Positions 40,826 to 60,555 of a DNA stretch of 64,000 bases are shown piece after piece (positions within the stretch are counted from its first letter, which is position 1; the number at the start of each line of letters is the position of its first letter). The notes beneath the pieces are model-generated. The model did not search any database, was not told where the DNA came from, and was given only the letters and a program-made list of their open reading frames with translations. This DNA is from an uncultured Verrucomicrobiota bacterium (GTDB taxonomy: Bacteria > Verrucomicrobiota > Kiritimatiellia > JAAZAB01): NCBI GenBank assembly GCA_964650945.1, contig CAZYXU010000003.1:1754-65753 (forward strand), written 5' to 3'. The position numbers were made by a program, and so were the translations under genes.

Positions 40826-40849
40826 GGGAAATTTGTTTTGCGCCAGGCC

Positions 40850-41160: not shown

Positions 41161-41188
41161 ACGTTGTCGAGAGATTGGATTAAGACGC

Positions 41189-42331: not shown

Positions 42332-42332
42332 C

Positions 42333-43091: not shown

Positions 43092-43119
43092 GCGGGCTGC
43101 ATTTCAAGGAGCGCACAAT

Positions 43120-44073: not shown

Positions 44074-44115
44074 AACCAATGCCGGATTAGATCGAACTGA
44101 CGATGGGAGGAGTAT

Positions 44116-44754
44116 ATGCTGATTTCGAACGTTACACGCTGGCTGCCGTCCGCCTTCATGGCGGCCGGATGCGTCTGGCTTGCCGGTTGCGCCACCAGCC
44201 GCGAGCCGCAATATTTTTTGCTGTCAGACGGCGCCCCGCCGCCCGCTGCCGGCGTCATGCATTTGCCGGAGCCGGCGCGCGTCATCCAGCTTTCGCCCAT
44301 CCGGCTGCCGGCCTATCTCGATCGGCCCCAGATTGTCACCCGGCCGGCGCCATGGCAGATTCAAACCAGCGATTTCCACCGGTGGGGGATGCCGCTCGAC
44401 GGCGCGGTGACGGATCTCCTGGCCGCCGTGCTGGCGGGAGCATTGCCCGCGGCGGCGGTGGCAACCGCGCCGCCGCCCGCCGCCCCGCCCGCCGGCCGCC
44501 GCCCCGCGGCCTGCCGGGTGCGGGTGGAGATTGACCGCCTGGACGGCGCCCTGGGCGGCGAGGTTGTCCTGGCGGCGCGCTGGACGGTGACGGCGGAACC
44601 GGGGGCGCCGGGGGCTGAGGCGCCGGCGCTGCGGCGCGCGGCGCATTGCCGCCAGCCGACGTCCGGCCCGGGTTATGACGCCTACGTCCAGGCCATCGGT
44701 GCGGCGGTGGCGCGGTTGGGCCAAGAGCTTGCCGCCAGTCTCAGTGAGCCTTAA
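44116..44754 (+). CDS. ABC-transport auxiliary lipoprotein (PqiC/YmbA-like, DUF330)
   Basis: Lipobox LAGC. Its position directly after mlaEFD is typical of PqiC-like components. Its sequence is Pro/Ala-rich with low motif content. Confidence 0.55.
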   Translation: MLISNVTRWLPSAFMAAGCVWLAGCATSREPQYFLLSDGAPPPAAGVMHLPEPARVIQLSPIRLPAYLDRPQIVTRPAPWQIQTSDFHRWGMPLDGAVTDLLAAVLAGALPAAAVATAPPPAAPPAGRRPAACRVRVEIDRLDGALGGEVVLAARWTVTAEPGAPGAEAPALRRAAHCRQPTSGPGYDAYVQAIGAAVARLGQELAASLSEP

Positions 44755-47144
44755 AGCTTGAACCTGATCCGGAAAACCGTGCCGGCCGCGCGGTCCACCT
44801 CAATGGCGCCCTGAAGCTGCTTTTGCGCCAGCATGCTCACCAGCCGCAAGCCGAGGGTGGGGCTGGCGCTCCAGTCCATGCCGGCGGGCAAACCACATCC
44901 GTTGTCGGCGACGGTCAGCAGGCATTCCCCGTTGGCTTGCGCGGCTTGCACCTTGATGACCGGCGGCGGGGCGCCGGGTGGGCGCGCGGCGCCGGCCGGG
45001 AAAGCGTGCTTGAAGGCGTTGGTGACCAGTTCGTTGACTATCAGCCCGCAGGGCACGGCGGTATCCAGGCTGACCGTAATCTCCCCCGCATCCACCAGGA
45101 TTTGCACGCCGTCGCGGATGGCAAAGGATTCCCGCAACGACGCCGCCAGGCTTTGGAAATATTCCTGCAACTTGATTTTGCTCAAGTTTTCGGATTGATA
45201 CAGCATTTCATGCAGGATGGCGATGGCGCGGATGCGGCGGCCCAGTTCCGGCAGCAGGGCGGCGTCCGGCAGCCGGCCCGGCGCGTGTTGCTGTAAATTA
45301 ATCAGCCCGACAATCACCGCCAGGTTGTTTTTAACGCGGTGATGCACTTCGCGCAGCAGCACCTCTTTCTCCGCCAGCAGCTCCTTCAGAATCCGGGCGT
45401 TTTCCCGCAGGGCGAGTTCCTGCTTCTTGGGCGCGGTGATATCCCAGAAAAATGCGGCAAAACGGTTTTGCCCGACCTGGCAGGCGCTCACCTGGTAATG
45501 GCGCTGGGACGGTTCGAAAAATATCTCGAAGGCGGCGGGTTCGCCGGTGAGCGCCACCTTGCCGTAGGTGGCGATCAGGTGGGTCTTTTCAATCCCGGGG
45601 TGGATTTGGGTAACGCGTTTGCCCAGCACATCCTTGAGCTTCAACCCCGTATGCGTTTCAAAGGCCGGGTTGGCCTTCAGGAAAATGTAATCCGCCGGGC
45701 GCCCTTGCGCGTCCAGGACGATTTCGTGGATGGCAATGGCCGAGAGGGAGTTGGTGAATAATTCGCGGAGTTGCCGCTCGCTGTCCCGCAATTCCCTTTC
45801 CAGGCGGTATTGCGCGGTGATGTCGCGGAACACCAGCACGACGCCGAAGATATCGCCGTTGGCGTCCTGAATCGGGGCGGCGCTGTCGGCAATTTGATAT
45901 TCGGCGCCATGCCGGCCGATGAGGGTGGTGTGATTGGCCAGGCCGACAATCTTGCCGTCCTTCAGCACTTTGGCCACGGGGTCGGGCATGGCCGCGCGGG
46001 TCTGGGCGTTGACGATTTTAATGATTTCCCCCAATGGTCGCCCTTCGGCCTCCGCCAGCGTCCAGCCGGTGAGGCGCTGGGCCACCAGGTTCATGCGCGC
46101 AACCTGTCCGGCGGCGTTGGTGGCGATGACCGCGTCCCCGATGGATTCCAGCGTGATCCGCAGGTGTTCCTCGCGGTGATGCAGGGCCTGCTCCGCCGCC
46201 TGGCGCTGCGTCAGTTCGACGCGCAGGCCGGCCGTGGCCGCCGCGATGCGGCGGCGCAGGGTATGCGCCCAGGCCAGGATGGCCAGCAGCAGCAGGCCGA
46301 TGGGCGCGAGAAAAATCAGCAGGTAGCGGGCCGCTTCGCCGATCGCGCCGCGGCGGGTGTAGCCGCCGAACCACCGGTCGTGGATTTGCTGGTAACGCCC
46401 GCTGGCGCGCAGCAGCAGCAGACCCTCGTCCAGCCGGGCCAGCAGGCTTTCACCGCCCTTGCGGCCGGCAAAACAATAATCGGTCTGATGGATGGCCGGA
46501 CCCGCCGGACGCAGGCCGTCCAAGCCATGCTTGTTGATCAGGTACAGCGCCGGCAATTTGGCCAGCAGCGCGCAATCGTGCCGGCCGTCCGCCAGCAGGC
46601 GCAGCGCGTCAATCGGATCGTTGACGGCGATGATATTCAGCGACAGGCTTTGCCCCAGCAGAAAATCGTGCATGATGTCGCCCTGCTGGACAATCACCTC
46701 GCGGCCTTTCAGGTCTTCAAGGCCCTTGATGGGTGAATCGCGGCGGGTGAAAATCGCGTGGGCCACGCTGATGAACGGGGCGGAAAAAATGAATTTCCGG
46801 CTGCGTTCGGCGGAATAATACATGCCGATCATCACGTCGGCCTCGCCGTCTTCCAGGCGGCGGAGCGCCGCGGTCCACGTGTCCAGCCGGATGCTGGGGC
46901 GGATATCCATCACCTCACAGACTTCGCGAAACAAGTCCACGTTGAAGCCGGTGGGCTGGCCCTGGTCGTCCAAAAATTCGTAGGGCGGGTAATTGTGGTC
47001 GCTGGCCGCGCGGATGTTTTCCGCGGCGTCCGCGCGGGCCGCCAGGGCCAGCAGCGCCATCCCGGCGATGGCCCGCCAAAGCGGCGGGCGCCCCCGGCGG
47101 GCATGGCGGATAGTCCGGTCGGTATTGAACTTTACCAGACGCAT
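44751..47144 (-). CDS. Sensor histidine kinase: periplasmic type-3 solute-binding domain, TM, 2–3 PAS domains, and HisKA_2/HWE-type kinase core
   Basis: N-terminal signal/TM then an SBP_bac_3-like region (RPSIRLDTWTAALRRLEDGEADVMIGMYYSAER). PAS segments follow. The H-box is VHHRVKNNLAVIVGLINLQ, and there is a C-terminal HATPase (TNAFKHAFP…DNGCGLP). Confidence 0.8.
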   Translation of the reverse strand: MRLVKFNTDRTIRHARRGRPPLWRAIAGMALLALAARADAAENIRAASDHNYPPYEFLDDQGQPTGFNVDLFREVCEVMDIRPSIRLDTWTAALRRLEDGEADVMIGMYYSAERSRKFIFSAPFISVAHAIFTRRDSPIKGLEDLKGREVIVQQGDIMHDFLLGQSLSLNIIAVNDPIDALRLLADGRHDCALLAKLPALYLINKHGLDGLRPAGPAIHQTDYCFAGRKGGESLLARLDEGLLLLRASGRYQQIHDRWFGGYTRRGAIGEAARYLLIFLAPIGLLLLAILAWAHTLRRRIAAATAGLRVELTQRQAAEQALHHREEHLRITLESIGDAVIATNAAGQVARMNLVAQRLTGWTLAEAEGRPLGEIIKIVNAQTRAAMPDPVAKVLKDGKIVGLANHTTLIGRHGAEYQIADSAAPIQDANGDIFGVVLVFRDITAQYRLERELRDSERQLRELFTNSLSAIAIHEIVLDAQGRPADYIFLKANPAFETHTGLKLKDVLGKRVTQIHPGIEKTHLIATYGKVALTGEPAAFEIFFEPSQRHYQVSACQVGQNRFAAFFWDITAPKKQELALRENARILKELLAEKEVLLREVHHRVKNNLAVIVGLINLQQHAPGRLPDAALLPELGRRIRAIAILHEMLYQSENLSKIKLQEYFQSLAASLRESFAIRDGVQILVDAGEITVSLDTAVPCGLIVNELVTNAFKHAFPAGAARPPGAPPPVIKVQAAQANGECLLTVADNGCGLPAGMDWSASPTLGLRLVSMLAQKQLQGAIEVDRAAGTVFRIRFKL

Positions 47145-47254
47145 GGGCTTAACCTTGTGAGTTTAAGGAGCCAGTCCGCGCCTAATCAAACCGTACTGCA
47201 TACCGAAGGATAATGCCGGAAGGGAACGGTGTCAAATGCAAAATCCGCCGTGGA

Positions 47255-48592
47255 TCAGCCGGCTTTGCCGGCCGGGCGGATGTAACCCCATTCCACCAGG
47301 CGTTGATAGGCATGCTGGGCCTGCTCGCCTTCCGAGGCCTGCTGCAGAAATTCCTGGTAGCAGCGGGCGGCTTCGGCCTTGCGCCCCATGTTTTCCAGGG
47401 CGAATCCGCGGAAAAACGAATTTAACGGGTTGCCGGGGAGCAGGCTGTTATAACGGGTGAAATTTTCCAGGGCCGCGGCGTACCGGCGGTTGCCCAGACA
47501 GGCCAGGCCGGCAATGTGCCAGGCCTGGGCTTCGCGCGGATAAATTTGACGCGCTTCCTCGGCCAGCGACTGGGCATCGGCGGGACGTTGCTGCGCCAGG
47601 CGGCATTTGGCCAGCATCAGCAAGGCGGTGTAATCGCCCGGGGCCAGGCGCCGGGCGGCTTCCAGTTGCGGCGCGGCCTGGTCGGGTTTGCCTTGGGCCA
47701 GCGCGAGGTCGCCGTTCTGCATCATTTGAATGGCTTCCTTTTGCGCGCGGATGGCGGCGGTCAGGTCGAGATAACGCTCGCGGTTTTCCGGCTGCGCCCG
47801 CCGGTCGCGGTATTGGGCTTCCACCAGTTCCGACGCGGTCCGGTAGCGTTCCTCGCTCATCGGGTGGGTGGCGAACATGAGTTCAATCAGGCCGGGCTTG
47901 CTCTTGGAGAGTTGGCGCAGGAGGTCCATCAGGGCGATGCAGCCGTTGGGATTGTAGCCCGCGCGCGTCATGTATTCCAGCCCCAGGGCGTCGGCCTGGC
48001 GCTCGTCATCCCGGCTGTAGCGCGCCAGCCACGCGCCGCCGGCCACCATGCCGACGCCGGCGGCGATGTTGGCGTATTCCTCGTGCTGGGATTGCACGTA
48101 GGTGTTGACGCCCGCCATCACCATCCCGGCCAGCATGCTGCGGGTGAGGTTGCTGCCCGTATGGCGGGAGCAGACGTGGCCGATCTCATGGCCCAGCACG
48201 GCCGCCAGCTCGTCCTCGCTCTCCATGGCCAGCAGCATGCCGCGCGTGACCGCCATGGTGCCGGCCGGAAATGTGTAGGCGTTGACGTAGGTGGCATTGA
48301 CCCCCTGGCAGGCGTAGGGCCGGCCGGGGCGGTGGGAATGCGCGGCCAGTTTTTTGCAGACTTGCGCCAGATAAGCGTTCAGGGCGGCATCCTGGCTGAT
48401 GCCGTAATCGGCCGAGAATTGGTGCGGAGCGTTTTGCCGGTCAATGTCAATTTCGCCGGATTCGGACAACAGCATCAGTTGCTTGCGGCCGGTGACGGGG
48501 TTGGTGGCGCAGCCGGCGCAGAACCCGGCCAGGGCGCCGGCAGAGACGGCGATAAAATCGCGGCGGCCGATTGTTTTTGGACGCAACAACAT
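47255..48592 (-). CDS. BepA-like M48-family zinc metalloprotease with C-terminal TPR repeats, a Tat-signal lipoprotein
   Basis: GHEIGH (HExxH). N-terminal RRDFIAVSAGALAGFCAGCA is a twin-arginine motif plus lipobox. Three or more TPR-like repeats are C-terminal. GGGGGAAAAG RBS before ATG 48592. Confidence 0.8.
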   Translation of the reverse strand: MLLRPKTIGRRDFIAVSAGALAGFCAGCATNPVTGRKQLMLLSESGEIDIDRQNAPHQFSADYGISQDAALNAYLAQVCKKLAAHSHRPGRPYACQGVNATYVNAYTFPAGTMAVTRGMLLAMESEDELAAVLGHEIGHVCSRHTGSNLTRSMLAGMVMAGVNTYVQSQHEEYANIAAGVGMVAGGAWLARYSRDDERQADALGLEYMTRAGYNPNGCIALMDLLRQLSKSKPGLIELMFATHPMSEERYRTASELVEAQYRDRRAQPENRERYLDLTAAIRAQKEAIQMMQNGDLALAQGKPDQAAPQLEAARRLAPGDYTALLMLAKCRLAQQRPADAQSLAEEARQIYPREAQAWHIAGLACLGNRRYAAALENFTRYNSLLPGNPLNSFFRGFALENMGRKAEAARCYQEFLQQASEGEQAQHAYQRLVEWGYIRPAGKAG

Positions 48593-48656: not shown

Positions 48657-50009
48657 ATGCAAACCGCTTTTAACATCCTGGTCATCGAGGACGATCCCGA
48701 CGGCCGGCAGTCGGTCACCGATGCGCTGGAGTCCGCCGGGCACCAGGTTGCCGCCGCCGCCGCCGGCGCCGCCGGCCTGGCCGCGCTCGCCGCCGGCCGG
48801 TTTGACCTGGTCCTTTCGGATGTGCGCCTGCCGGATTTGGACGGGCTGGAGGTGCTCGCGCGCATCCGCCAGCGCGATGCGGCCATCCCGGTGCTGCTGA
48901 TGACGGCCTACGGCTCGGTGGCCACCGCCGTTGCCGCCCTGCAGGCGGGCGCGTATGACTACATTCTGAAACCGCTGGACCTGGCGGATTTGCAGGCCAA
49001 GGTGGCGCGGGCGGGGGAGACCGTCCGCCTGCGCGCGGAAGTCGGCCGGCTGCAGGCGGCCTTGTCCGCCCGCAATGGTGCGCGGCCGCTGGTGTTCGCC
49101 TCCGACCGGATGCGGGCGGTATTGGAACGGGTGCGGGCCGTGGCCTCCACGCGGGCGACGGTTTTGATTGTCGGCGAAAGCGGGGTGGGCAAGGAGTTGA
49201 TCGCGCGCGAATTGCACTTTGGCGGCGCGCGCGCGGCCGCGCCCTTCGTGGCGGTCAATTGCGGCGCGCTGTCGGAGTCGCTGCTGGAGTCGGAATTGTT
49301 CGGCCATGAAAAGGGCGCCTTCACCGGGGCGGCGGAACGGCATCCCGGGGCGTTTGAGCGCGCGCAGGACGGCACGTTGTTCCTGGATGAAATCGGCATC
49401 GCGCCCCCGCGCGTGCAGGAGCGCCTCTTGCGGGTGCTGGAGGAAAAGGAAATCACGCGGCTGGGCGGCCGGCAGACCGTGCCGCTGGATGTGCGGATTA
49501 TCGCGGCTTCCAACCAGGATTTGCACGTGCTGGCGGCGGAGCGGCAATTCCGGCGCGACCTGCTCTACCGCTTGCAGGTGGTGACCATTGCCGTGCCCCC
49601 CTTGCGGGAGCGGCCGGCGGACGTGCGGCCGCTGGCCGACCATTTCATCGCCATGGCCTGCGCGGAGCATGGCCGGCATCTCGAGGGCGCGGCGCCGGAT
49701 TATTACGCGCGGCTGGAGCAATACGCCTGGCCGGGCAACGTCCGCGAATTAAAACATGCGGTGGAGGCTTCCGTGCTGATGGCCGCGACCCCGCGGCTGA
49801 CGGGCGCCGACCTGCAACTGGGCGCCGCCGCGCCGCCGGCCGCGGCGCCCCCCATTCCCCCCGGCCTGACGCTGGCGGAAATCGAGCGCGTGGCATTGTT
49901 GCAGGCCCTGCGACGGCACCAGGGCAGCCGCGTGGCGGCGGCGGCGGAATTAGGGGTCGCCGTCCGCACGATCCAGCGAAAAATCCGGGACTACGCCCTG
50001 CCGTTTTAG
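48657..50009 (+). CDS. Sigma-54-dependent response regulator (NtrC family: receiver plus AAA+ sigma54-activation plus Fis-type HTH)
   Basis: Receiver (ILVIEDDPDG…DLVLSDVRLPDLDG), Walker A GESGVGKE, GAFTGA motif (EKGAFTGAAER), and a C-terminal HTH. Confidence 0.85.
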   Translation: MQTAFNILVIEDDPDGRQSVTDALESAGHQVAAAAAGAAGLAALAAGRFDLVLSDVRLPDLDGLEVLARIRQRDAAIPVLLMTAYGSVATAVAALQAGAYDYILKPLDLADLQAKVARAGETVRLRAEVGRLQAALSARNGARPLVFASDRMRAVLERVRAVASTRATVLIVGESGVGKELIARELHFGGARAAAPFVAVNCGALSESLLESELFGHEKGAFTGAAERHPGAFERAQDGTLFLDEIGIAPPRVQERLLRVLEEKEITRLGGRQTVPLDVRIIAASNQDLHVLAAERQFRRDLLYRLQVVTIAVPPLRERPADVRPLADHFIAMACAEHGRHLEGAAPDYYARLEQYAWPGNVRELKHAVEASVLMAATPRLTGADLQLGAAAPPAAAPPIPPGLTLAEIERVALLQALRRHQGSRVAAAAELGVAVRTIQRKIRDYALPF

Positions 50010-50566
50010 GAAAGATGCTGCCAGAGGATGCGCGCGCCGATGCCGATCAGGACCAGCCCGCCGGCGATTTCAATCTTGTTTTCGAAGCAATGCCCGAACC
50101 GCTCGCCGATGAACACCCCGGCCAGCGACATGGCGAAGGTGATGGCGCCGATCACCAGCGCCGGCGCGATAATCGCCACCCGCAGCATGGAGAGGCTGAA
50201 CCCGACCGCCAGGGCGTCAATACTGGTGGCCACCGCGAGCGTCAGCAGCAACTGCATACCCAGCGGCCGGTGGCGGTGTTCGGCCTTTTCCAGCGCGAAC
50301 GCTTCGTAAATCATTTTTCCGCCGATGAACGTCAACAAGCCGAAGGCGATCCAGTGGTCCACGGCGGCGACCGCATCCCGCACGCCGCGCCCGCCGAGCC
50401 AGCCCAGGATGGGCATGAGCATCTGGGCCAGGCCGAAACAGGCGGCGATGCGCAGGGCATAGCCGATGCGCAGGGTCCGCCGGACGGCGCAGCCGCTGGC
50501 GATGGCGACGGCGAAAGCATCCAGGGACAAGCCCAGGGAGATGGCGATGAGTTCGAAAACCTTCAT
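50006..50566 (-). CDS. mntP: Manganese efflux pump MntP
   Basis: Duplicated DUF204 halves with LSLDAFAVAIASG and TSIDALAVGFSLS motifs. Confidence 0.85.
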   Translation of the reverse strand: MKVFELIAISLGLSLDAFAVAIASGCAVRRTLRIGYALRIAACFGLAQMLMPILGWLGGRGVRDAVAAVDHWIAFGLLTFIGGKMIYEAFALEKAEHRHRPLGMQLLLTLAVATSIDALAVGFSLSMLRVAIIAPALVIGAITFAMSLAGVFIGERFGHCFENKIEIAGGLVLIGIGARILWQHLS

Positions 50567-51945
50567 GTGTGTTGTTCGATGAATTCCCGCACGCTGGCGG
50601 GCGCGGCGGGGCGGACGGTGCGCCGCTGCGGCAATTGCGCCAGGCCGTCCAGCGCGGGATGGCGCGCCAGATCGCGCCCGGTGGCCTGGCGGATGGCGGC
50701 GCCGAACTTGGCGGGGTGGGCGGTGGCCAGGCAGATCATCGGCTCGTCCGGATGCAAAAATTGTTGCGCGACATGCACGCCCGCGGCCGTGTGCGGATCG
50801 AGCAGGTAACCGTGGCGCGCGTGGCAGGCGCGGATGGCGGCAAGCGTGGCGGCGGTGTCCGCCGACCCGGCGCAGAACAGCGGATCGATCGCGCCGTCCG
50901 GGCCGGCCGGCAATTCCAGCCGGCCGGTTTGGGCGAAGGTTTGCATCCGCCGCCGCAGCGCGCCGGCATCGCCGTTCAGCCGGTAGTAAAGATAACGTTC
51001 GAAATTGCTGGCCACCTGGATGTCCATGGACGGGCTGATGGTGGCCTGAACCGCGCCGCGCTGGTACACGCCGGTCTGGAAGAAGCGCGCGAGAATGGCG
51101 TTTTCATTGGTCGCCAGGATGAGCCGGCGGATGGGCAGCCCCATGCGCCCGGCGATGTAGCCGGCGAAGATGTCGCCGAAATTACCCGTGGGCACGGCAA
51201 ACCGGACGCCGGCGCAGCCGGTTTCGTCCATCACCCGGAAGGCGGCGTAAAAGTAATAGACCACCTGGGCCAGGATGCGCGCCCAGTTGATGGAGTTGAC
51301 CGCGCCCAGGCAGCGGCGGTCGCGGAACGGCAGGTCGCCCAGCAGCGTCTTGACGATCTGCTGGCAATCGTCAAACGTCCCCTGCAGCGCCAGCGTAAAA
51401 ACATTGGCATCCGGCACGGTGATCATCTGGAGTTCCTGCGACGGGCTGACCCGGCCGTCCGGGTAGAGGACGAAGATGCGGATGCGTTCGCGGCCCTTGA
51501 CGCCGTGGACCGCCGCGCTCCCGGTGTCGCCGCTGGTGGCGGCGATGATGTTCAATTGGCCCCCGGTGCCTTGCAGGAGATACTCGAAGAGGCCGCCGAG
51601 GAATTGCAATGCCAGATCCTTGAAGGCCAGGGTGGGGCCGTGGAACAACTCCAGCAGATGCAGCTCGCCCAGCCGCCGGACCGGCGTGATTTCCGGGTGG
51701 GTGAAGGCGGCGCACGCGGTGTGCACCAGCCGGCGCAGGTCCGCCGCCGGCAGGTCGGTGTAAAGCCGCATGATTTCGCAGGCCAGTTCCGGGTAGGGCA
51801 ACGCGCGCCAGGCCGGCAGATGTTGGCGGACATCGGGGATGGATTCCGGCAGGAACAGGCCGCCATCGCGGGCCAGGCCGGCGAGCACGGCCCCGGAAAA
51901 GTCGGCGGCATCGCCGCCGCGGGTACTGATGTAGCGCATAATCAC
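50563..51945 (-). CDS. thrC: Threonine synthase ThrC (long form)
   Basis: MRYISTRGG N-terminus and PLP-lysine region FKDLALQF. The GTG start overlaps the stop of the upstream kinase gene (GTGA). Confidence 0.85.
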   Translation of the reverse strand: MIMRYISTRGGDAADFSGAVLAGLARDGGLFLPESIPDVRQHLPAWRALPYPELACEIMRLYTDLPAADLRRLVHTACAAFTHPEITPVRRLGELHLLELFHGPTLAFKDLALQFLGGLFEYLLQGTGGQLNIIAATSGDTGSAAVHGVKGRERIRIFVLYPDGRVSPSQELQMITVPDANVFTLALQGTFDDCQQIVKTLLGDLPFRDRRCLGAVNSINWARILAQVVYYFYAAFRVMDETGCAGVRFAVPTGNFGDIFAGYIAGRMGLPIRRLILATNENAILARFFQTGVYQRGAVQATISPSMDIQVASNFERYLYYRLNGDAGALRRRMQTFAQTGRLELPAGPDGAIDPLFCAGSADTAATLAAIRACHARHGYLLDPHTAAGVHVAQQFLHPDEPMICLATAHPAKFGAAIRQATGRDLARHPALDGLAQLPQRRTVRPAAPASVREFIEQHT

Positions 51946-54900
51946 TCCCAGTTTTGACGGCCGTGATGCGGCCGCCAGGGCAGGCCGTTGACCGCGGCCA
52001 GGGCGGGCATCTGGCGCAGAATTTCCGCGAAAACACGGTCGGTGTCCCGCTGGTGGCGGAAGGGCTGGTAATCCAGCCAGATTTCCTCGATGGGCGCGTG
52101 TTGCAGGGGGGAAAGGTCTTTAATGGCGGTCTGCTTGATGTTCAAGGTGCGCAATGGCATGCCGCGCAGCGCCAGGATGTTCTTGATTTCCGTCCCGCTG
52201 ATGTCCAGGTGTTTCAACGGCATGCCGTGAATCTGCGTCAGATCGTTGACCTTGGTGGCGGCCAGATCGAGCCGCTCGAGGGGCATGTTCGCCAGGGGGC
52301 GCAAGTCCCAGACTGCCGTCTCGCGCACGTCCAGCGCGCTCAACGGCATGCCCGCCAGCGGGGCCAGGTCGCGGATCAGGGTGCGGGCGGCCCGCAAATC
52401 CGTCAGGGGCTTGCCGCGCAGCACGCCGAGGTCGGCGATTTCGGTCTGGGTCAGGTTCAGTTCCCGCAAAGGCATCGCGCGCAGCGGGGCGAGATCCCGC
52501 AGCTTGACGTAGCTCAAGTCGAGCGCTGTCAGGCGCAGGTCGGCCAGCGGCCCGATGTCGGTCACGTCGGTTTGCGTCAGGCTCAGCCGGGTCAGCGACA
52601 GCATGCCGGTGATGGGCTCCAGATCCTTGACGCGGGTGTGCCCCAGATAGAGGGTTTGCAGGGGCAGGTTGCGCAGCGGTTCCAGGTCGTCCAATGGCGC
52701 CAGAATGACGGCGTCCGACCGGTCGGCCGGCCGCTTGCCGCCGGCGATCAGTTCCCGCAGGGTGGTCAGTTGCGCCAGCGGTTGCAGGGTCCGTAAATTG
52801 GCAGAGATGATTTCCAGGCGGACAGGCTGGCCCTGCGGGTCGGTTTGACAGACGATTTCACTTTCCCGCAAGCCGGGATTGTGATTGAGCAGGCTGTTTT
52901 TCAGGTAACCAGGCGTATCGCGTCCGCCGCCGTTTTCCGCCTCCCGCCCGGCGCCGGCGTCGCTCCCGGCGGCCGCGCCGGCGGCGGCCGCGGCCGGATG
53001 GGATTCCGCGGCTTTCCATAGCGGCTCGGCCTGCCTGACGCAATCGGTGCCGGCATAACGGGTCTGGAACATAGCGGCGGCCTGGCGCAGGAATTGCGCC
53101 TCCAGCGGCGATAATTTGCGCTGTTTCAACAGGGCGGCAAGCTGGGCGGACTGGGGCGGCGGATCGTCGAGTTTGATCTGGACGCGCCCCAGGATGAGGG
53201 CCAGTTCCATCCAGGCGGCCTGTTCCTGCTGACGGTGGCGCTGCTGCGCCACGGCGGCGTTCAAGGCCGGCCCCAGCAACTCGCCGGCGCCTTCAAAGGC
53301 GCGTTCGGCCGCGTCAAAATTATTTTCCCGCATGGCCAGCATGCCCCGCAGCAGGGCCGTCTCGGGTGTGGCGGACGTCCCCAGCCGCTCCTGCTTTTCG
53401 ATGAGAGTCAGATCGGCCAGGCGCAGTTGCTGGGGTTGAATGGCATAACCGCCGCCGACAGGGCTGATTTTTTCGGCCAGGATGACGCCGTCGGCCACCT
53501 CCCGGACGGTAAGTTTTTCCACGCCCCGCGTCAGGCGGAGGTCGAGCGTCTGGCCCTTTTGAGGAAGAAAAGACGCAAGCAGGCGCCGGTCCAGTTCCGC
53601 GGCCGCCTGGCAGATTGACGCCAACTCGCGCAGTTGCGGACGGCGGTCCGCCAGTTGATTGTCGGCGCCGGCCGCCTGCAGGCGCTCCAGGATGGGGTCG
53701 AAGTTTTCCGTGAGCACGGCGGCGGTGACCTCGTCGAGGATTTGCTGCCATTGGCGGTCCAGCTCCTGCTGGCGCGATTGCTTGGCCGTCAGGTGTTCCG
53801 CGGCGCGGGCTTGCCATGTTTCGGCGCGGGCTCGGCGCTGCTGGGCGGTTTCGGCAGCCAATTCGCCGGCATAGCCGGATAAAAGCGCGGCTGCCTCCGC
53901 GTAATGCTGGCGCGCGGCCAGTTGTCCGGCCTGGTCGTTCAAGGTCTGCATGATCCGGTTGATGGCCCGATTCTTGGCCTGGCGCACTTTCTGGACTTCA
54001 TCCAGCGCCAGGGCGGCGTAGCGTGTGCCCCGGGTATCGGCGGCCACCTGCTCGAATTTACGGATGGCCTGGTTGTATTGCCCGGGATTTTCCGTCAGCC
54101 ACTGCAAGGTGTTGTCATACAGTTCGCGCGCCAGCTTTTCGCGTTCGTCGTCCGGGGCGGCGGGCGTGGTGGCGGCGGGCGGCGGCGCCGCCGGGGCGGC
54201 CCCTTGCGCGGCGGCCGCGCTTGCCGCGGCGCGGTCCGGCGCGCGCCAGCGGCGCAGGACCAGGCCGGCCAGCGCCAGGACGGCCAGGACCAGGATGGCG
54301 GCGATGATTTTCTCGAATTGCATCCGGCGGTTGACGATGCGGGGGCTGGGGATCGGGGCCGCGGCGCGCGCGCGGGGCCGCGGATGCGGCGATGTCGCCA
54401 GCCAGTAACCTTGCAGGTAACGCCTTTCCGGCAGACCGTCGGTGCGCTGGGTGTCTTCCTGGTCGAGCAGCCGGTAGATGTCCCGCAGGTGCTGGGCGCG
54501 CAATTGACAGCGCCGGACGGTGCTGGCCTTCGCCTGGCGGAAATCTCCCAGCGGCAGTTTTTCCGATCGGACTTGGATGATATCCTGGATGACCGCCCCC
54601 CAGTCCGCCTGGCGGTCGGCGGGGTCCTTATACATCATCTTTTCTATCAGGCAGGCGGAGCCGGTGGCAATCGCGGGGTGGATTTCCTGGGGATCGGGGA
54701 TGGTGTCCGTGATCTGGCGGTCCATGATTTCATGGGGCGGCAGCGACTCGAAAGGCATCTTGCCGGTCAGGCAGTGGTACAAGGTGGCGCCCAGGGCGTA
54801 AATATCGGTGCGGCAATCCAGGCTGCTGTCGCCGCGGGCCTGTTCGGGGGCGATGTAATTCGGGGTGCCGAAAATGGAGCCGGTCTCGCCGCTGTCGGCC

Positions 54901-55388
54901 ACGGAGCGGATGCTTTTGGCCAGTCCCAGGTCGGCGACCTTGATCGAGCCGTCGCTGTCAATGATGATGTTGTCGGGCTTGACGTCGCAATGGATGATGC
55001 GATCGTGTTCCCACGCGTATTTCAAGGCATCGGACACGCTTTGGGCGATGAGCAGGGCGTTTTCCTGGGAAATCCGCTGCTTGCGCCGGATCCAGTGGGC
55101 CACGCTGTAGCCGGAAACGAATTCCATGACAAAATAATAAATGCCGTCATCCGTTTTGCCGAAGTCATACACCTGGACGATGTTGGGATGCTTGAGGCTG
55201 GCGGTGATGCGGGCTTCGCTGATGAACTTGTCGATGTCGCCCGGCTCGCGCGCGAGGTTGGGCGGAAGGGTTTTTAAAGCCACAATGCGCTCGAGCGAGA
55301 TCTGGCGCGCCTTGTAAACTGTGCTCATGCCGCCGCGCGGCAGGATTTCGAGGATTTCAAACCCGGTGAATTTAGGCGCGTCGTCCAT
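51942..55388 (-). CDS. Ser/Thr protein kinase (Hanks-type) plus TM plus helical/TPR-like region plus C-terminal leucine-rich-repeat (LRR) domain
   Basis: Kinase subdomains: GGMSTVYKARQ (Gly loop), ALK (VAIK-like), HCDVKPDNIII (catalytic loop), DLGLA (DFG-like), and GTPNYIAPE (APE). TM helix IIAAILVLAVLALAGLVL at ~aa 375. The C-terminus has ~12 LxxLxLxxTxIxDLxPL repeats. Confidence 0.8.
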   Translation of the reverse strand: MDDAPKFTGFEILEILPRGGMSTVYKARQISLERIVALKTLPPNLAREPGDIDKFISEARITASLKHPNIVQVYDFGKTDDGIYYFVMEFVSGYSVAHWIRRKQRISQENALLIAQSVSDALKYAWEHDRIIHCDVKPDNIIIDSDGSIKVADLGLAKSIRSVADSGETGSIFGTPNYIAPEQARGDSSLDCRTDIYALGATLYHCLTGKMPFESLPPHEIMDRQITDTIPDPQEIHPAIATGSACLIEKMMYKDPADRQADWGAVIQDIIQVRSEKLPLGDFRQAKASTVRRCQLRAQHLRDIYRLLDQEDTQRTDGLPERRYLQGYWLATSPHPRPRARAAAPIPSPRIVNRRMQFEKIIAAILVLAVLALAGLVLRRWRAPDRAAASAAAAQGAAPAAPPPAATTPAAPDDEREKLARELYDNTLQWLTENPGQYNQAIRKFEQVAADTRGTRYAALALDEVQKVRQAKNRAINRIMQTLNDQAGQLAARQHYAEAAALLSGYAGELAAETAQQRRARAETWQARAAEHLTAKQSRQQELDRQWQQILDEVTAAVLTENFDPILERLQAAGADNQLADRRPQLRELASICQAAAELDRRLLASFLPQKGQTLDLRLTRGVEKLTVREVADGVILAEKISPVGGGYAIQPQQLRLADLTLIEKQERLGTSATPETALLRGMLAMRENNFDAAERAFEGAGELLGPALNAAVAQQRHRQQEQAAWMELALILGRVQIKLDDPPPQSAQLAALLKQRKLSPLEAQFLRQAAAMFQTRYAGTDCVRQAEPLWKAAESHPAAAAAGAAAGSDAGAGREAENGGGRDTPGYLKNSLLNHNPGLRESEIVCQTDPQGQPVRLEIISANLRTLQPLAQLTTLRELIAGGKRPADRSDAVILAPLDDLEPLRNLPLQTLYLGHTRVKDLEPITGMLSLTRLSLTQTDVTDIGPLADLRLTALDLSYVKLRDLAPLRAMPLRELNLTQTEIADLGVLRGKPLTDLRAARTLIRDLAPLAGMPLSALDVRETAVWDLRPLANMPLERLDLAATKVNDLTQIHGMPLKHLDISGTEIKNILALRGMPLRTLNIKQTAIKDLSPLQHAPIEEIWLDYQPFRHQRDTDRVFAEILRQMPALAAVNGLPWRPHHGRQNWE

Positions 55389-55436
55389 GCTGGGCTGGTG
55401 CCGGATTGGCGGAAGTGTTTGACAGATCAATATGTT

Positions 55437-55467
55437 TTTGATTCATTGTGTGGGTAGCATTATAAAT
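55437..55467 (+). promoter_or_regulatory. Sigma70-like promoter candidate (TTGATT-17-TATAAA)
   Basis: Read directly in an AT-rich patch: TTGATTcattgtgtgggtagcatTATAAAt. It is oriented toward the small ORF and the AstE-family gene. Confidence 0.35.
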
Positions 55468-55530
55468 GCCATGCACAACAGGGTCAATTTATTTAAACGC
55501 CGGTCTGCCCGGCGGCGGCGCGGGCAGGCG

Positions 55531-55656
55531 ATGGTGGAATACGCCGTGGTGGCCGGCATGCTGGTGGCCGTCTGGTTCATGCTGACGCTGTTTTTACGCG
55601 TGTTCGGCGAATACGGCGCGCGGATTCTGGATATGGTCGCCGCGGATTATCCGTGA
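55531..55656 (+). CDS. Possible small hydrophobic peptide (41 aa), very tentative
   Basis: MVEYAVVAGMLVAVWFMLTLFLRVFGEYGARILDMVAADYP, one predicted TM helix downstream of the promoter candidate. No RBS was verified. Confidence 0.25.
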   Translation: MVEYAVVAGMLVAVWFMLTLFLRVFGEYGARILDMVAADYP

Positions 55657-55702
55657 GCCGGGCGGAAGACTGCATTCAAAGGCTGCCTTGACCGGGGGAA
55701 AT

Positions 55703-56791
55703 ATGACAAAAAAAATCGTCCAACCGCCAACCATCACCATCCGGCGCCGGCCGGGCAAACATAAATCTTTTTTGGAAACGGGGCATTACGTCCAGTCGGT
55801 CAAGGTGCGTTTGCCCGTCCTGACCGTTACCGGCGCGCGGCCCGGCCCGTTGGCGGTGATCATGGCCGGCCAGCATGGCCGGGAATTGAACGGGGTGGCG
55901 GCGATCGAGCGGGTTTTCAACGAACTGGACCCGCAGTCCCTCAAGGGGACGGTGGTTTTCCTGCCAGTCTTGAACCCGCTGGCCGTCCTCACCCGGCGCC
56001 AGGATTATCCCGTCGAGGAATTCCGCTACCGCCGCATGGGACTGAACATGCTGACGCCCCGGCCGGCGGGGCCGGACCGCAATTACAACATGGATTTATG
56101 CTGGTTGGAGCGGCCCACGGCCGACAGCTATGTTTTTGCCGTCACCGGGGCGGTTTGGCAGACCTGGCTGCGGCATGCCGACTGGAGCATTGACCTGCAT
56201 GGCTGGTCGGACGCCTTTACCCCGCTGGCATGGAGCATGCGCCCCTATGCCGGTTTCCTGCGCAATTTCGGCTTGCCCTGGCACCAATTGCGCGCGCCGC
56301 GGTTGAACGACCCGGATGCGGGCATGACATTGACCCGCACTTATGCGGCCGGCATTCCCCATATTGTCGCGGAACTGCCCCCGCAGAATATTATTGACCC
56401 GGTGAGCATGGCCTATGGCCGCCGGGGCATCCTGAACAGCCTGAAATTCACCGGCATGCTTGCCGGCCGGCCGGAATTGCCGCCGCTGCAATATGAACTG
56501 CGGCAGGGCGACAAGGATGCCGTCATCGTGACGGGGGCGGAAGGCCTGCTGATCGGCGAAATCCCCACCGGCGCCTGGGCGCGCAAGGGGCAGCTTGTAG
56601 CGCGGGTCTTTTCGCTGGAAACCTTTGAGACGGTCTGGAGTTTCACCGCGCCCTTTGACGGCCTGGTGTTTTCCAGCGGGCGTGGCTTGTGGGGCGAGGA
56701 TATCCGCGAGCAGGCGGTGGTCTACCCGCGGATGCGTGTGGGAATGATGCGCAAGGTGGCGCAGGTGATCCGTAATCGAGGAGCAAAATAA
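55703..56791 (+). CDS. Succinylglutamate desuccinylase / aspartoacylase (AstE/AspA) family zinc hydrolase
   Basis: GPLAVIMAGQHGRELNGVAAI (Zn-binding His/Glu region of the M14-like AstE_AspA fold) and later DLHG. Its size (~360 aa) fits the family. Confidence 0.7.
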   Translation: MTKKIVQPPTITIRRRPGKHKSFLETGHYVQSVKVRLPVLTVTGARPGPLAVIMAGQHGRELNGVAAIERVFNELDPQSLKGTVVFLPVLNPLAVLTRRQDYPVEEFRYRRMGLNMLTPRPAGPDRNYNMDLCWLERPTADSYVFAVTGAVWQTWLRHADWSIDLHGWSDAFTPLAWSMRPYAGFLRNFGLPWHQLRAPRLNDPDAGMTLTRTYAAGIPHIVAELPPQNIIDPVSMAYGRRGILNSLKFTGMLAGRPELPPLQYELRQGDKDAVIVTGAEGLLIGEIPTGAWARKGQLVARVFSLETFETVWSFTAPFDGLVFSSGRGLWGEDIREQAVVYPRMRVGMMRKVAQVIRNRGAK

Positions 56792-60048: not shown

Positions 60049-60555
60049 ATGCCGGCGCGTAAACAAAAAAAAGCCGCCATCCGGATTCGTCCGGCGGGCT
60101 TCGGCGACGCGGGGGAAATCTACCGCATCATCAAGGAGCATCCGCGCGAAGTCCTGGCGCGTTCGGTGAGCGACATCGTCCAGAATATCGACCGGTTCCT
60201 GGTGGCGGAAACCGGCGGGCGGATTGCCGGCACGGCCTCCTGGCAGATTCTCCCGGAAATCGGCCGCGCGGCGGAGCCTTCGATCGAAATCAAATCCGTG
60301 GCCGTATCCCGCGAATTTCAGCGCCGCGGGGTGGGGGATAAACTGGTGCGGGCGGTCATCCGCCATGTGCGCGCCTATCGCCCGGCGCAATTGGTGGTGT
60401 TGACGTTTTCGCCGGAATATTTCCGCCGGTTCGGCTTCCGTGAGACGCCCAAGGAAAAATTGATGCACAAGCTCTACATGGGTTGCGTCAACTGCACCAA
60501 GTATGACTCGCCCTTCACCTGCCCGGAAGTCGCCATGACCATCGGCTTGCGCTAG
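60049..60555 (+). CDS. GNAT-family acetyltransferase with a C-terminal Cys-rich tail
   Basis: VAVSREFQRRGVGDKLV (acetyl-CoA-binding Q/R-x-x-G-x-G/A motif). GGAGG RBS 9 nt before ATG 60049. The tail is CVNCTKYDSPFTCPE. Confidence 0.7.
   Translation: MPARKQKKAAIRIRPAGFGDAGEIYRIIKEHPREVLARSVSDIVQNIDRFLVAETGGRIAGTASWQILPEIGRAAEPSIEIKSVAVSREFQRRGVGDKLVRAVIRHVRAYRPAQLVVLTFSPEYFRRFGFRETPKEKLMHKLYMGCVNCTKYDSPFTCPEVAMTIGLR

What the first reader, a model, noticed from the sequence alone, without database searches (positions are those of the whole stretch)
51942..55388. Receptor-like Ser/Thr kinase: cytoplasmic Hanks kinase, single TM, long extracytoplasmic helical region, C-terminal LRR domain. Translationally overlapped with thrC
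The 1148-aa protein has all Hanks kinase subdomains at the N-terminus, one TM helix, a ~400-aa Ala/Gln-rich helical segment, and ~12 leucine-rich repeats at the C-terminus. This is an inverted-topology analogue of plant LRR receptor kinases, with the ligand-binding LRR module outside the cell. Such bacterial LRR-kinases are rare and uncharacterised.

Its stop codon overlaps the GTG start of threonine synthase (GTGA). This implies co-transcription of a signalling kinase with thrC. ThrC's product Thr and substrate O-phosphohomoserine are obvious candidates for regulation by Ser/Thr phosphorylation.
Basis: partly seen in the sequence, partly recalled or inferred. Interest (0 to 1): 0.6.

Follow-up and report, generated by a model that had tools for sequence, protein, structure and literature searches.

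The report
Bacterial membrane kinase with LRR sensor
This is a real gene for a membrane-spanning signalling kinase with a leucine-rich-repeat sensor facing the periplasm. It belongs to a large, unstudied family found across Verrucomicrobia-type (PVC) bacteria, and its tight link to the threonine synthase gene is a feature of one lineage rather than of the family.

Summary
The 1148-aa ORF (51942-55388, minus strand) is a real gene. It has an N-terminal PknB-like Hanks kinase, one TM helix, a ~400-aa helical domain with no known family, and a C-terminal internalin/Roco-type LRR of about 10-12 units of 21 aa.

All catalytic residues are invariant in 89 homologues, so it is probably active. The catalytic loop is the non-RD variant HCD(I/V)KPDN.

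The family is not rare. 89 of the best 150 cluster representatives share the architecture, and at least 589 HCD-kinase loci occur in PVC genomes (Verrucomicrobiota, Kiritimatiellia, Lentisphaerae). I found no paper describing it.

The order kinase, TM, sensor is the normal bacterial one, not an inversion. In these diderm bacteria the LRR is periplasmic, not outside the cell.

thrC most likely starts at ATG 51939, 2 nt after the kinase stop, not at the overlapping GTG. A compact kinase-thrC-mntP operon is real and is conserved in one clade (7 loci). It is absent from 13 other full-length homologue loci, so a dedicated ThrC-regulating role is unsupported.

Best reading: a periplasm-sensing receptor Ser/Thr kinase with unknown ligand and substrates.

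The parts
55459..55487 (-). Sigma-70-like promoter TTGACC-17 nt-TATAAT, about 70 nt upstream of the kinase ATG
   Evidence: 11 of 12 consensus matches. Both hexamers are invariant in L001-L003, within an intergenic region that is 89% identical.
55389..55458 (-). Conserved 5' leader of the kinase gene. It contains an in-frame TTG at 55430 and an out-of-frame ATG that opens a short uORF.
   Evidence: Its nucleotide conservation exceeds synonymous-site conservation inside the gene, which is about 0.44-0.72.
51942..55388 (-). Coding sequence of the 1148-aa kinase-TM-helical domain-LRR protein, stop codon included
54579..55367 (-). Cytoplasmic Hanks-type kinase domain (residues ~8-270), with non-RD catalytic loop HCDVKPDN, DLG, and Gly loop PRGGMSTV
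   Evidence: Pfam PF00069 scores 163.3 bits against a cut-off of 31.7. The nearest solved structure is M. tuberculosis PknB, E 1.5e-46. K39, E58, H133, C134, D135, N140, D153, G155, T175, P181, E182, D195 and R259 are invariant in 89 homologues.
54312..54578 (-). Arg-rich cytoplasmic juxtamembrane segment (residues 271-359), with a near-invariant Ser289-Thr290
   Evidence: S289 is kept in 85 of 89 and T290 in 81 of 89 homologues, while the segment overall is only about 20% identical. Treating these as phospho-sites is inference.
54249..54311 (-). Single transmembrane helix (residues ~360-380, KIIAAILVLAVLALAGLVL)
   Evidence: Kyte-Doolittle 19-residue peak of 2.82. It is the only such segment in this protein and in all 89 homologues.
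54147..54248 (-). Ala/Pro/Thr-rich linker after the TM helix (residues 381-414)
   Evidence: Composition. pLDDT is below 50.
52989..54146 (-). Family-specific periplasmic 'mid' domain (residues ~415-800): TPR-like helical hairpins, long helices, and a helical bundle
   Evidence: AlphaFold2 pLDDT is about 85-93. No Pfam family matched in 43 members. No PDB fold match better than E 0.09. The PDB profile search gave only weak helical-repeat hits. Conserved motifs include Y506, G508, R518, F607, G622, E664, R668 and G670.
53421..53549 (-). Four-strand small beta-barrel inserted in the mid domain (residues ~614-656)
   Evidence: Strands E220-262 of model m06f830b1d178. Local Foldseek matches to Sm/SH3-like barrels (Gemin6/7, Hfq) have probability 0.9-0.98 but E about 0.6-1, so this is only suggestive.
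52908..52988 (-). Low-complexity Ala/Gly linker (residues ~801-827)
   Evidence: Composition. pLDDT is 24-42.
51969..52907 (-). Internalin/Roco-type LRR solenoid with caps (residues ~828-1140). Nine clean 21-22-aa units lie at residues 910-1099.
   Evidence: Pfam LRR_4. Chlorobium Roco LRR 5il7 at E 2.4e-41 and internalin A at 1.3e-27 by sequence. Foldseek to InlA at E 9e-13, rmsd 3.0 over 280 columns. Repeat HMM count of 10.
51937..51949 (-). Kinase-thrC junction: GGGAG (Shine-Dalgarno-like, 51949-51945), TGA stop (51944-51942), TT, then ATG (51939-51937)
   Evidence: Junctions in relatives range from a 4-nt overlap to a 6-nt gap.
50563..51939 (-). thrC (threonine synthase, 458 aa from the ATG)
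   Evidence: TIGR00260 scores 268.9 bits against a cut-off of 167.1. Pfam Thr_synth_N, PALP and THR4_C.
50006..50566 (-). mntP-like manganese efflux gene. Its ATG overlaps the thrC stop (ATGA).
   Evidence: NCBIfam MntP at E 3.5e-39, but below the curated cut-off. Pfam Mntp is recorded for the orthologues. The same 4-nt overlap occurs in L001, L002, L006 and L007.

Best explanation
The gene encodes a genuine, probably catalytically active, single-pass membrane Ser/Thr kinase.

Shown:
- It belongs to a family specific to PVC-group bacteria, marked by a non-RD catalytic loop HCD(I/V)KP(D/E)N and DLG in place of DFG.
- Domain order is: PknB-like kinase, juxtamembrane segment with a conserved Ser-Thr, one TM helix, Pro/Ala linker, a ~400-aa family-specific helical domain with a small beta-barrel, then an internalin/Roco-type LRR solenoid.
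- It is the first gene of a compact kinase-thrC-mntP unit behind a conserved sigma-70-like promoter.
- That gene order is conserved only in the window's own clade.

Inferred:
- The kinase needs cytoplasmic ATP and there is only one TM helix, so the C-terminal ~770 residues lie in the periplasm.
- A periplasmic ligand binds the LRR/mid ectodomain. Internalin-type LRRs usually bind proteins or peptides.
- Binding changes the oligomeric state of the receptor.
- This permits trans-autophosphorylation, possibly on the juxtamembrane Ser289/Thr290, followed by phosphorylation of unknown cytoplasmic targets.
- Co-expression with thrC and mntP is a lineage-specific operon arrangement, not a dedicated threonine-pathway control circuit.
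For: - Real gene and domains.
- Catalytic residues invariant in 89 homologues of 28-74% identity.
- Kinase nearest to PknB, PknA, PknE and StkP, not to plant RLKs.
- One TM helix in every member.
- Ectodomain models are confident within each domain.
- LRR matches internalin A and the CtRoco LRR by sequence and by fold.
- The sensor side evolves faster than the kinase, as expected for a ligand-binding module. Median identity to the window protein is 52% for the kinase, 26% for the mid domain and 35% for the LRR. LRR unit number varies from 5 to 15.
- Family size and taxonomy.
- Diderm envelope genes (MlaE, MlaD, BamD-like TPR) are in the window.
- Kinase followed by a C-terminal TM is the commonest bacterial STK layout.
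- Operon evidence: a strong promoter, conserved in relatives, only upstream of the kinase; a 2-nt kinase-thrC spacer and a 4-nt thrC-mntP overlap; tight junctions in L001, L002, L006 and L007.
- The thrC link is clade-specific. It is present in the window, L001-L003, L005, L006 and L007 and absent in 13 other full-length homologue loci, whose neighbours are MtnA/flavoprotein or Gly-zipper/MatE/SSF genes. The synteny groups largely follow the kinase tree; one group-B locus (L008) falls outside its clade.
Against: - There is no experimental evidence for activity, topology, ligand or substrates.
- The first glycine of the Gly-rich loop is Pro in this clade (14 of 89 members), which could lower ATP affinity.
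- The charge bias around the TM helix is weak (3.4 versus 2.9 K+R), so topology rests on the ATP argument.
- Inter-domain geometry is uncertain (pTM 0.41), and the alignment used for the models had only 6 sequences.
- Keeping a tight kinase-thrC-mntP junction while the kinase diverged to ~39% identity could reflect selection for co-expression that I cannot exclude.
- No PP2C phosphatase or FHA partner lies nearby in the part of the window scanned, roughly 38.7-63.6 kb.
Confidence: 0.7

Rival explanations
1. One reading: the kinase is a dedicated regulator of threonine biosynthesis. It phosphorylates ThrC, or responds to threonine or O-phosphohomoserine, which would explain the translational coupling to thrC.
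For: - The kinase-thrC junction is tight.
- It is conserved in seven loci of one clade, spanning kinase identity down to ~39% and ThrC identity of 64-68%.
- A single strong promoter lies upstream of the kinase.
- No elevated synonymous-site conservation, which would hint at an embedded thrC promoter, is seen at the kinase 3' end.
Against: - 13 other full-length homologue loci, including L030, the sister of the thrC clade, have unrelated neighbours.
- The same operon carries mntP, so it is functionally mixed.
- The sensor is periplasmic, whereas threonine intermediates are cytoplasmic.
- A full-text search found no precedent for regulation of ThrC by a Ser/Thr kinase.
- No threonine-type leader or riboswitch was found.
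Confidence: 0.1
2. It is the PVC counterpart of PASTA kinases (PknB, PrkC, StkP): a housekeeping monitor of the cell envelope or cell division. The mid/LRR ectodomain would read a periplasmic envelope component rather than an external signal.
For: - The kinase domain is closest to PknB, PknA and StkP.
- The family is broadly distributed in PVC lineages, apparently inherited vertically, and sits among housekeeping genes.
- A short HCD-kinase paralogue lies directly upstream of ddl-ftsQ in L058.
Against: - There are no PASTA repeats, and the NF033483 score of 278.5 is below its cut-off of 450.
- The ddl-ftsQ adjacency was seen in only 1 of 85 loci.
- Internalin-type LRRs are known as protein binders, not peptidoglycan binders (established knowledge of the internalin family).
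- There are no functional data.
Confidence: 0.2
3. It is a pseudokinase or scaffold: the kinase fold is kept, but the protein signals without phosphotransfer.
For: - The Gly-loop first glycine is replaced by Pro.
- The HRD arginine is replaced by Cys and the DFG Phe by Leu.
Against: - The beta3 Lys, alphaC Glu, catalytic Asp and Asn, and the metal-binding Asp are all invariant in 89 homologues.
- By the criteria used for bacterial pseudokinases, which require loss of the VAIK Lys, HRD Asp or DFG Asp, it is a canonical kinase.
- Non-RD kinases such as the plant receptor EFR are active (paper listed).
Confidence: 0.05
4. It is an anti-phage defence kinase of the PD-T4-6 or Stk2 type, or a surface adhesin using its internalin-like LRR.
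For: PADLOC PD-T4-6 models match the kinase domain at E 4e-76. The LRR resembles internalins.
Against: - The PADLOC hits cover only the generic kinase domain and have no curated cut-off.
- The neighbourhood is housekeeping and syntenic across relatives, not a defence island.
- The family tree largely tracks the synteny groups, suggesting vertical descent.
- There is no signal peptide or cell-wall anchor, and the internalin NCBIfam scores are far below their cut-offs, for example 48.5 against 1050.
Confidence: 0.03

Closest known systems
PASTA receptor kinases: PknB (M. tuberculosis), PrkC (B. subtilis), StkP (S. pneumoniae)
   Same: They share the N-terminal cytoplasmic Hanks kinase, juxtamembrane segment, single TM helix and C-terminal extracytoplasmic repeat sensor. 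The kinase domain is the closest solved relative (PknB, E 1.5e-46). The best NCBIfam hit is also this family.
   Different: The sensor is a new helical domain plus an LRR instead of PASTA repeats. The catalytic loop is HCD (non-RD) rather than HRD, and DLG replaces DFG. The host is diderm, so the sensor is periplasmic. The score is below the family cut-off (278.5 against 450).
Plant LRR receptor kinases, especially the non-RD pattern-recognition receptors FLS2, EFR and XA21
   Same: They combine an LRR ectodomain, a single TM helix and a Ser/Thr kinase. From my own knowledge (Dardick and Ronald 2006), these plant receptors also carry a non-RD catalytic loop of the HCD type. A paper on the non-RD receptor EFR is listed.
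   Different: The order along the chain is opposite: in plants it runs signal peptide, LRR, TM, kinase. Plant LRRs are 24-residue repeats, against the 21-22-residue internalin type here. The kinase here is of PknB lineage, with no plant RLK among the best 60 PDB hits. The resemblance is therefore convergent, not homologous.
Chlorobium tepidum Roco protein (bacterial LRRK2 homologue), LRR domain
   Same: It is the best solved match to the LRR by sequence (5il7, E 2.4e-41) and among the best by fold.
   Different: The Roco LRR is cytosolic and is followed by Roc-COR GTPase domains. Neither is present here. There is no TM helix in Roco.
Listeria internalins (InlA, InlB, InlH)
   Same: The LRR subtype and curvature are shared (Foldseek to InlA: E 9e-13, rmsd 3.0 over 280 columns).
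   Different: Internalins are secreted or wall-anchored adhesins with a signal peptide, N-cap and IR domain, and no kinase. NCBIfam internalin scores are far below their cut-offs.
LRR-containing bacterial STK noted in the 2005 survey of prokaryotic kinase architectures (P. aeruginosa gi|9948555; PMC1262709)
   Same: It is a Hanks kinase fused to LRRs in a bacterium, and it is uncharacterised.
   Different: It comes from a different phylum. I did not compare the sequences. No HCD signature or mid domain is reported for it.

Membership tests
Hanks-type (eukaryotic-like) Ser/Thr protein kinases | Pfam PF00069 match above the gathering score | tested here: met
   163.3 bits against a cut-off of 31.7, covering residues 11-260
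Hanks-type (eukaryotic-like) Ser/Thr protein kinases | Catalytic residues present: beta3 Lys, alphaC Glu, catalytic-loop Asp and Asn, DFG Asp, APE Glu | tested here: met
   K39, E58, D135, N140, D153 and E182 are present and invariant in 89 homologues
Hanks-type (eukaryotic-like) Ser/Thr protein kinases | Phosphotransfer activity | not testable with these tools
   Needs an in vitro autophosphorylation assay
RD kinases (Arg before the catalytic Asp) | HRD motif | tested here: not met
   The loop is HCDVKPDN. HCD is found in nearly all full-length relatives among the best 150 hits. The 89-member set was selected for HCD, so invariance of the Cys is by construction.
PASTA kinases (NCBIfam NF033483, PknB/Stk1) | Whole-protein score at or above the curated cut-off | tested here: not met
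   278.5 bits against a cut-off of 450. The match covers residues 10-382 only.
PASTA kinases (NCBIfam NF033483, PknB/Stk1) | Extracytoplasmic PASTA repeats | tested here: not met
   No PASTA family among the Pfam hits at E up to 0.1, nor in 43 family members
PASTA kinases (NCBIfam NF033483, PknB/Stk1) | N-terminal kinase, single TM helix, C-terminal sensor | tested here: met
Plant LRR receptor kinases (RLK/Pelle) | Signal peptide and LRR ectodomain N-terminal to the TM helix, kinase C-terminal | tested here: not met
   The order here is kinase (8-270), TM (360-380), LRR (828-1140)
Plant LRR receptor kinases (RLK/Pelle) | Kinase domain of the RLK/Pelle lineage | tested here: not met
   The best solved relatives are bacterial (PknB, PknA, PknE, StkP), followed by animal AGC and CAMK kinases. 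No plant RLK is in the best 60.
Roco proteins (LRR-Roc-COR) | Roc GTPase and COR domains | tested here: not met
   No such Pfam hits. Only the LRR matches.
Internalins | NCBIfam internalin models at or above the cut-off; signal peptide and N-cap | tested here: not met
   InlH scores 48.5 against 1050 and InlA 40.9 against 1600. The N-terminus is a kinase domain.
PVC 'HCD' kinase-mid-LRR family (defined here, alignment A4) | HCD[IV]KP[DE]N loop, single TM helix at ~300-360, mid-domain HMM match, C-terminal 21-aa LRRs, total length ~1000-1260 aa | tested here: met
   The window protein is the reference sequence. 89 members were found. Mid-domain HMM and LRR hits occur in 18 or more genome loci.
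PD-T4-6 anti-phage kinase (PADLOC) | HMM match | tested here: inconclusive
   E 4e-76, but only over the generic kinase domain and with no curated cut-off
PD-T4-6 anti-phage kinase (PADLOC) | Defence-island context or phage protection | tested here: not met
   The context is purM, an astE-like gene, thrC, mntP, a sigma-54 regulator and an M48 peptidase, syntenic in relatives. Phage protection itself is not testable here.

The most novel reading that the evidence does not exclude
This protein represents an undescribed family, found across PVC-group bacteria, of non-RD (HCD) receptor Ser/Thr kinases. Its periplasmic ectodomain, a new ~400-aa helical and beta-barrel module plus an internalin-type LRR, would bind a protein or peptide ligand. 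That would make it a convergent bacterial counterpart of plant LRR pattern-recognition receptors. In the window's clade, the conserved fusion into a kinase-thrC-mntP operon would then reflect a real circuit tying envelope or periplasmic sensing to threonine supply and Mn2+ homeostasis. Hanks kinases and their PP2C phosphatases are often Mn2+-dependent.
Probability: 0.15. Interest if true: 0.65.

Novelty: new variant of a known kind. Interest (0 to 1): 0.4.

Why it matters
Receptor-type Hanks kinases are well studied only with PASTA (PknB, PrkC, StkP) and a few other sensors, almost all in Actinobacteria and Firmicutes.

These groups are important in gut, rumen, marine and soil carbohydrate turnover. 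The family has three distinctive features:
- a conserved non-RD catalytic loop;
- a ~400-aa periplasmic domain with no Pfam or PDB relative;
- an LRR module whose repeat number varies between members.

It offers a tractable case of convergent LRR-kinase receptor design between bacteria and plants, and a new sensor domain to characterise.

It is not a surprise in kind, though. Genome surveys have listed LRR-STK fusions since 2005, and the layout is the standard bacterial one. The proposed link to threonine synthase, which was the more eye-catching claim, is not supported beyond one clade's operon structure.

Tried and rejected
- The search for homologous proteins with the ectodomain, with the mid region and with a mid-domain profile returned only 2-6 close relatives. 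The word index was saturated by LRR and Ala/Gln-rich words. The exhaustive representative search was what revealed the family.
- The listing of cluster members gave no names or accessions.
- The look-up of encoding contigs could not locate P0001 itself. The organism is inferred only from relatives labelled 'uncultured Verrucomicrobiota'.
- The GTG start and GTGA overlap were rejected, because the GTG is out of frame in L001 and L002 and MRYISTRGG is the conserved N-terminus.
- I looked for an embedded thrC promoter through synonymous-site conservation at the kinase 3' end. There is no signal: 0.68 in the last 40 codons against 0.44-0.72 elsewhere. This is not conclusive.
- The positive-inside rule as topology evidence gave only a weak bias.
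- The Rfam scan of 49800-56000 found nothing.
- A defence-system reading from the PADLOC hits was rejected as generic kinase similarity.
- No PP2C or FHA partner was found in the part of the window scanned, roughly 38.7-63.6 kb.
- Literature searches for bacterial LRR-kinases in Verrucomicrobia and for ThrC phosphorylation found nothing relevant, apart from the 2005 survey.


Full report
**Observation**

The minus strand carries an ORF ending at 51942. From ATG 55388 it encodes 1148 aa, and the longest-ORF call from TTG 55430 gives 1162 aa. An identical 1148-aa protein exists in NCBI-derived data (P0001), and close relatives begin with the same MDDAPKF.

The ORF has the codon-position GC signature of real genes in this 65% GC window, with GC3 0.81 and GC2 0.45.

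Pfam finds Pkinase at residues 11-260 (E 9.5e-48) and LRR_4. A motif scan finds VALK (K39), HCDVKPDN (D135, N140), DLG (D153) and APE (180-182). It also finds a single hydrophobic segment at about residues 360-380, with a Kyte-Doolittle peak of 2.82.

The C-terminus holds nine clean 21-22-residue LxxLxLxxTxIxDLxPLxxMP units at residues 910-1099. Degenerate and capping units extend this from about residue 856, and a repeat HMM counts 10 units.

**The thrC junction**

The sequence reads ...TGG GAG TGA TT ATG CGC TAC.... GTGA is there, but the ATG at 51939 is the better start for three reasons:
- It gives MRYISTRGG, the N-terminus called for ThrC in relatives (458 aa).
- It has GGGAG 5 nt upstream.
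- In L001 and L002 the GTG is out of frame with thrC.

So thrC most likely starts 2 nt after the kinase stop and there is no overlap.

The coupling is still tight, and it is conserved. L001 and L002 have 4-nt gaps, L006 a 6-nt gap and L007 an ATGA overlap. thrC and mntP overlap by ATGA in all of these loci.

The only strong sigma-70-like promoter in the region (TTGACC-17-TATAAT, 11 of 12 matches) lies at 55487-55459, upstream of the kinase. It sits in an intergenic stretch that is 89% identical across four genomes. That is more conserved than synonymous sites inside the gene. A kinase-thrC-mntP operon is the likely transcription unit, but this is not proven.

**What the protein is**

The kinase domain is closest to M. 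tuberculosis PknB (E 1.5e-46), followed by S. aureus Stk1, PknA, PknE and StkP. No plant receptor kinase appears among the best 60 solved structures. The NCBIfam PASTA-kinase model matches only residues 10-382 and scores below its cut-off.

The LRR is of the internalin/Roco type. By sequence it matches the Chlorobium Roco LRR (5il7, E 2.4e-41) and internalin A (1.3e-27). By fold it matches InlA at E 9e-13, rmsd 3.0 over 280 columns.

AlphaFold2 models of residues 395-1148 and 410-850 have mean pLDDT of 77-78. The helical region scores about 85-93 and the LRR 80-94. The mid region consists of:
- TPR-like hairpins;
- two very long helices;
- a four-strand small beta-barrel at residues ~614-656;
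- a further helical bundle.

This mid region has no known relative by any test I could run:
- No Pfam match in 43 family members.
- No PDB fold match better than E 0.09.
- Only weak helical-repeat hits in a profile search of PDB.

**The family**

The exhaustive search of 1.84 billion cluster representatives showed that this is a large family. Among the best 150 hits, 89 are 1000-1260 aa long, carry HCD[ILVM]KPxN near residue 130, and have exactly one hydrophobic segment near residues 300-360.

In their alignment, K39, E58, H133, D135, K137, N140, D153, G155, T175, P181, E182, D195 and R259 are invariant. S289 and T290 in the juxtamembrane segment are nearly invariant, and the mid domain carries its own conserved motifs. 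C134 is also invariant, but the set was selected for HCD, so that is by construction.

The first-reader refutation test, loss of catalytic residues in orthologues, therefore fails. The kinase is most likely active.

One deviation is that the first glycine of the Gly-rich loop is Pro in this clade, in 14 of 89 members.

Median identity to the window protein is 52% in the kinase, 20% in the juxtamembrane segment, 26% in the mid domain and 35% in the LRR. LRR unit number ranges from 5 to 15. A conserved catalytic module joined to a fast-evolving sensor is the expected pattern for a receptor.

**Distribution**

Almost all are in Verrucomicrobiota, Kiritimatiellia and Lentisphaerae/Victivallales MAGs, with a few in Planctomycetota.

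Among the 80 loci kept, HCD kinases fall into these classes:
- about 1100-1200 aa: kinase, TM, mid domain, LRR (18 or more loci);
- about 670-790 aa: kinase, TM, mid domain, no LRR;
- about 300 aa: soluble kinase only;
- about 540-760 aa: other forms without a mid-domain match.

So 'rare' is wrong for this superphylum. 'Uncharacterised' is right. No paper I could find describes the family. A 2005 survey noted an LRR-STK in P. aeruginosa (PMC1262709). The 2025 atlas of bacterial STKs does not mention LRR or PVC lineages in its main text.

**Topology and setting**

The atlas reports that a kinase followed by a C-terminal TM helix is the commonest bacterial layout, found in 25 of 42 families, in contrast to eukaryotic receptor kinases. 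The 'inverted topology' is therefore the bacterial norm.

With one TM helix and an ATP-dependent N-terminal domain, the C-terminal ~770 residues must be extracytoplasmic. The window encodes MlaE, MlaD, an Mla-type ABC ATPase and a BamD/YfiO-like TPR protein, as expected for a diderm cell. The LRR therefore faces the periplasm, not the outside. The charge bias at the TM helix is weak, so this rests on inference.

**The thrC link**

tblastn of the window's neighbours against 85 loci finds thrC immediately downstream only in L001-L003, L005, L006 and L007, as in the window itself.

Thirteen other loci with full-length homologues have other neighbours. One group has a convergent MtnA/IF-2B gene with an upstream flavoprotein. 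Another has Gly-zipper, MatE and SSF genes with an upstream PAS histidine kinase.

In a neighbour-joining tree the thrC-linked loci form one clade. Its sister, L030, lacks thrC. The other synteny groups largely follow the tree as well, apart from one group-B locus, L008. The adjacency arose once and persisted. It is not a property of the family.

The operon also includes an Mn2+ exporter, no riboswitch or leader was found, and no literature precedent links ThrC to a Ser/Thr kinase. A dedicated ThrC-regulating role remains possible within this clade, but I rate it at about 0.1.

**Mechanism proposed**

The steps below are inferred. A periplasmic ligand binds the LRR/mid ectodomain, probably a protein or peptide given the internalin-type LRR. 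Binding changes receptor oligomerisation. The PknB-like, non-RD kinase then trans-autophosphorylates, possibly at the conserved juxtamembrane Ser-Thr, and phosphorylates unknown cytoplasmic substrates.

A variant worth testing is that this is the PVC functional analogue of PASTA kinases, monitoring the envelope.

The pseudokinase, defence (the PADLOC PD-T4-6 hits cover only the generic kinase domain) and adhesin readings are unlikely.

**Comparison and novelty**

It works like PknB-class receptor kinases, but it fails the PASTA-kinase membership tests. It resembles plant LRR-RKs in composition and in the non-RD HCD loop. However, it has the opposite chain order, a different LRR class and a bacterial kinase lineage, so that resemblance is convergence.

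It is best filed as a new variant of a known kind, the bacterial receptor Hanks kinases. Interest is moderate (0.4). The family and its mid domain are new and widespread, but the architecture class is expected and the thrC story is weak.

Noticed in passing
L035, L036, L040, L041, L051, L053, L056-L059, L061, L062, L064-L066, L069, L071-L073, L082 (e.g. L058 3439-6876); in the window, compare 48657-50009 (+): A three-gene cassette recurs in Kiritimatiellia and Lentisphaerae MAGs: a PAS histidine kinase, then a sigma-54 NtrC-type response regulator, then a ~300-aa soluble HCD Ser/Thr kinase. All are on one strand with gaps of tens of nt or less, often behind an AMP-ligase gene. The regulator-kinase pair is in 20 or more of the 80 loci, and the histidine kinase was detected in most of them. 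In the window, a sigma-54 response regulator 42-46% identical to that one lies two genes from the kinase, convergent with mntP. This may point to crosstalk between HCD kinases and sigma-54 activators.
   Followed up: partly
window 55389-55545 (-): The divergent intergenic region is 89% identical across four genomes whose kinase proteins are only ~70% identical. The conserved part includes the -35 and -10 hexamers and a ~65-nt leader. The leader holds an in-frame TTG (CTG or GTG in relatives) 14 codons upstream of the ATG, and an out-of-frame ATG opening a ~24-codon uORF that overlaps the kinase start. No Rfam match.
   Followed up: partly
window 55531-55656 (+): A 41-aa hydrophobic small ORF (MVEYAVVAGMLVAVWFMLTLFL...) lies divergent from the kinase. 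Relatives have a gene called in the same place (41-59 aa in L001-L003). It has no Pfam match. A TadE-like gene lies upstream of the kinase in L006.
   Followed up: partly
L016, L018, L019, L027 (and P0127, P0132, P0140, P0142, P0143, P0149): HCD kinases of about 670-790 aa carry the TM helix and the mid domain but no LRR. The mid domain thus appears to be the core periplasmic module, with the LRR as an add-on.
   Followed up: partly
L058 6887-8634: In one Kiritimatiellia MAG the short HCD kinase is followed directly by ddl and an ftsQ-like POTRA gene, which is the end of the division and cell-wall cluster. This was not seen in the other loci.
   Followed up: yes
window 50006-50009: The 3' ends of mntP (minus strand) and the sigma-54 response regulator gene (plus strand, ending at 50009) overlap by 4 nt. 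No terminator-like site was found between them.
   Followed up: no
L003 and L005: These two relatives' assemblies have many fragmented genes: the kinase, thrC, mntP, the regulator and purM are each split into pieces. This looks like frameshift errors rather than pseudogenes. The 823-aa P0005 and 522-aa P0004 are therefore truncation artefacts.
   Followed up: partly
L012, L062, L069, L079, L083-L085: PVC-type HCD kinase loci sit in MAGs labelled Pseudomonadales, Methanomethylophilaceae archaeon, Lachnospira hominis, Chloroflexia/Anaerolineae and Spongiibacteraceae. For L062 and L069, which carry the full HK, sigma-54 regulator and kinase cassette, mis-binning or contamination is likely.
   Followed up: no
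window 38762-48583 and 60552-63569: Context genes in the window:
- an undecaprenyl-phosphate translocase-like gene;
- an Mla-type operon (MlaE, ABC ATPase, MlaD);
- an SBP_bac_3-PAS-HWE histidine kinase (797 aa);
- an M48 peptidase with TPR repeats;
- a 1005-aa TPR protein with a BamD/YfiO-like segment.
   Followed up: partly
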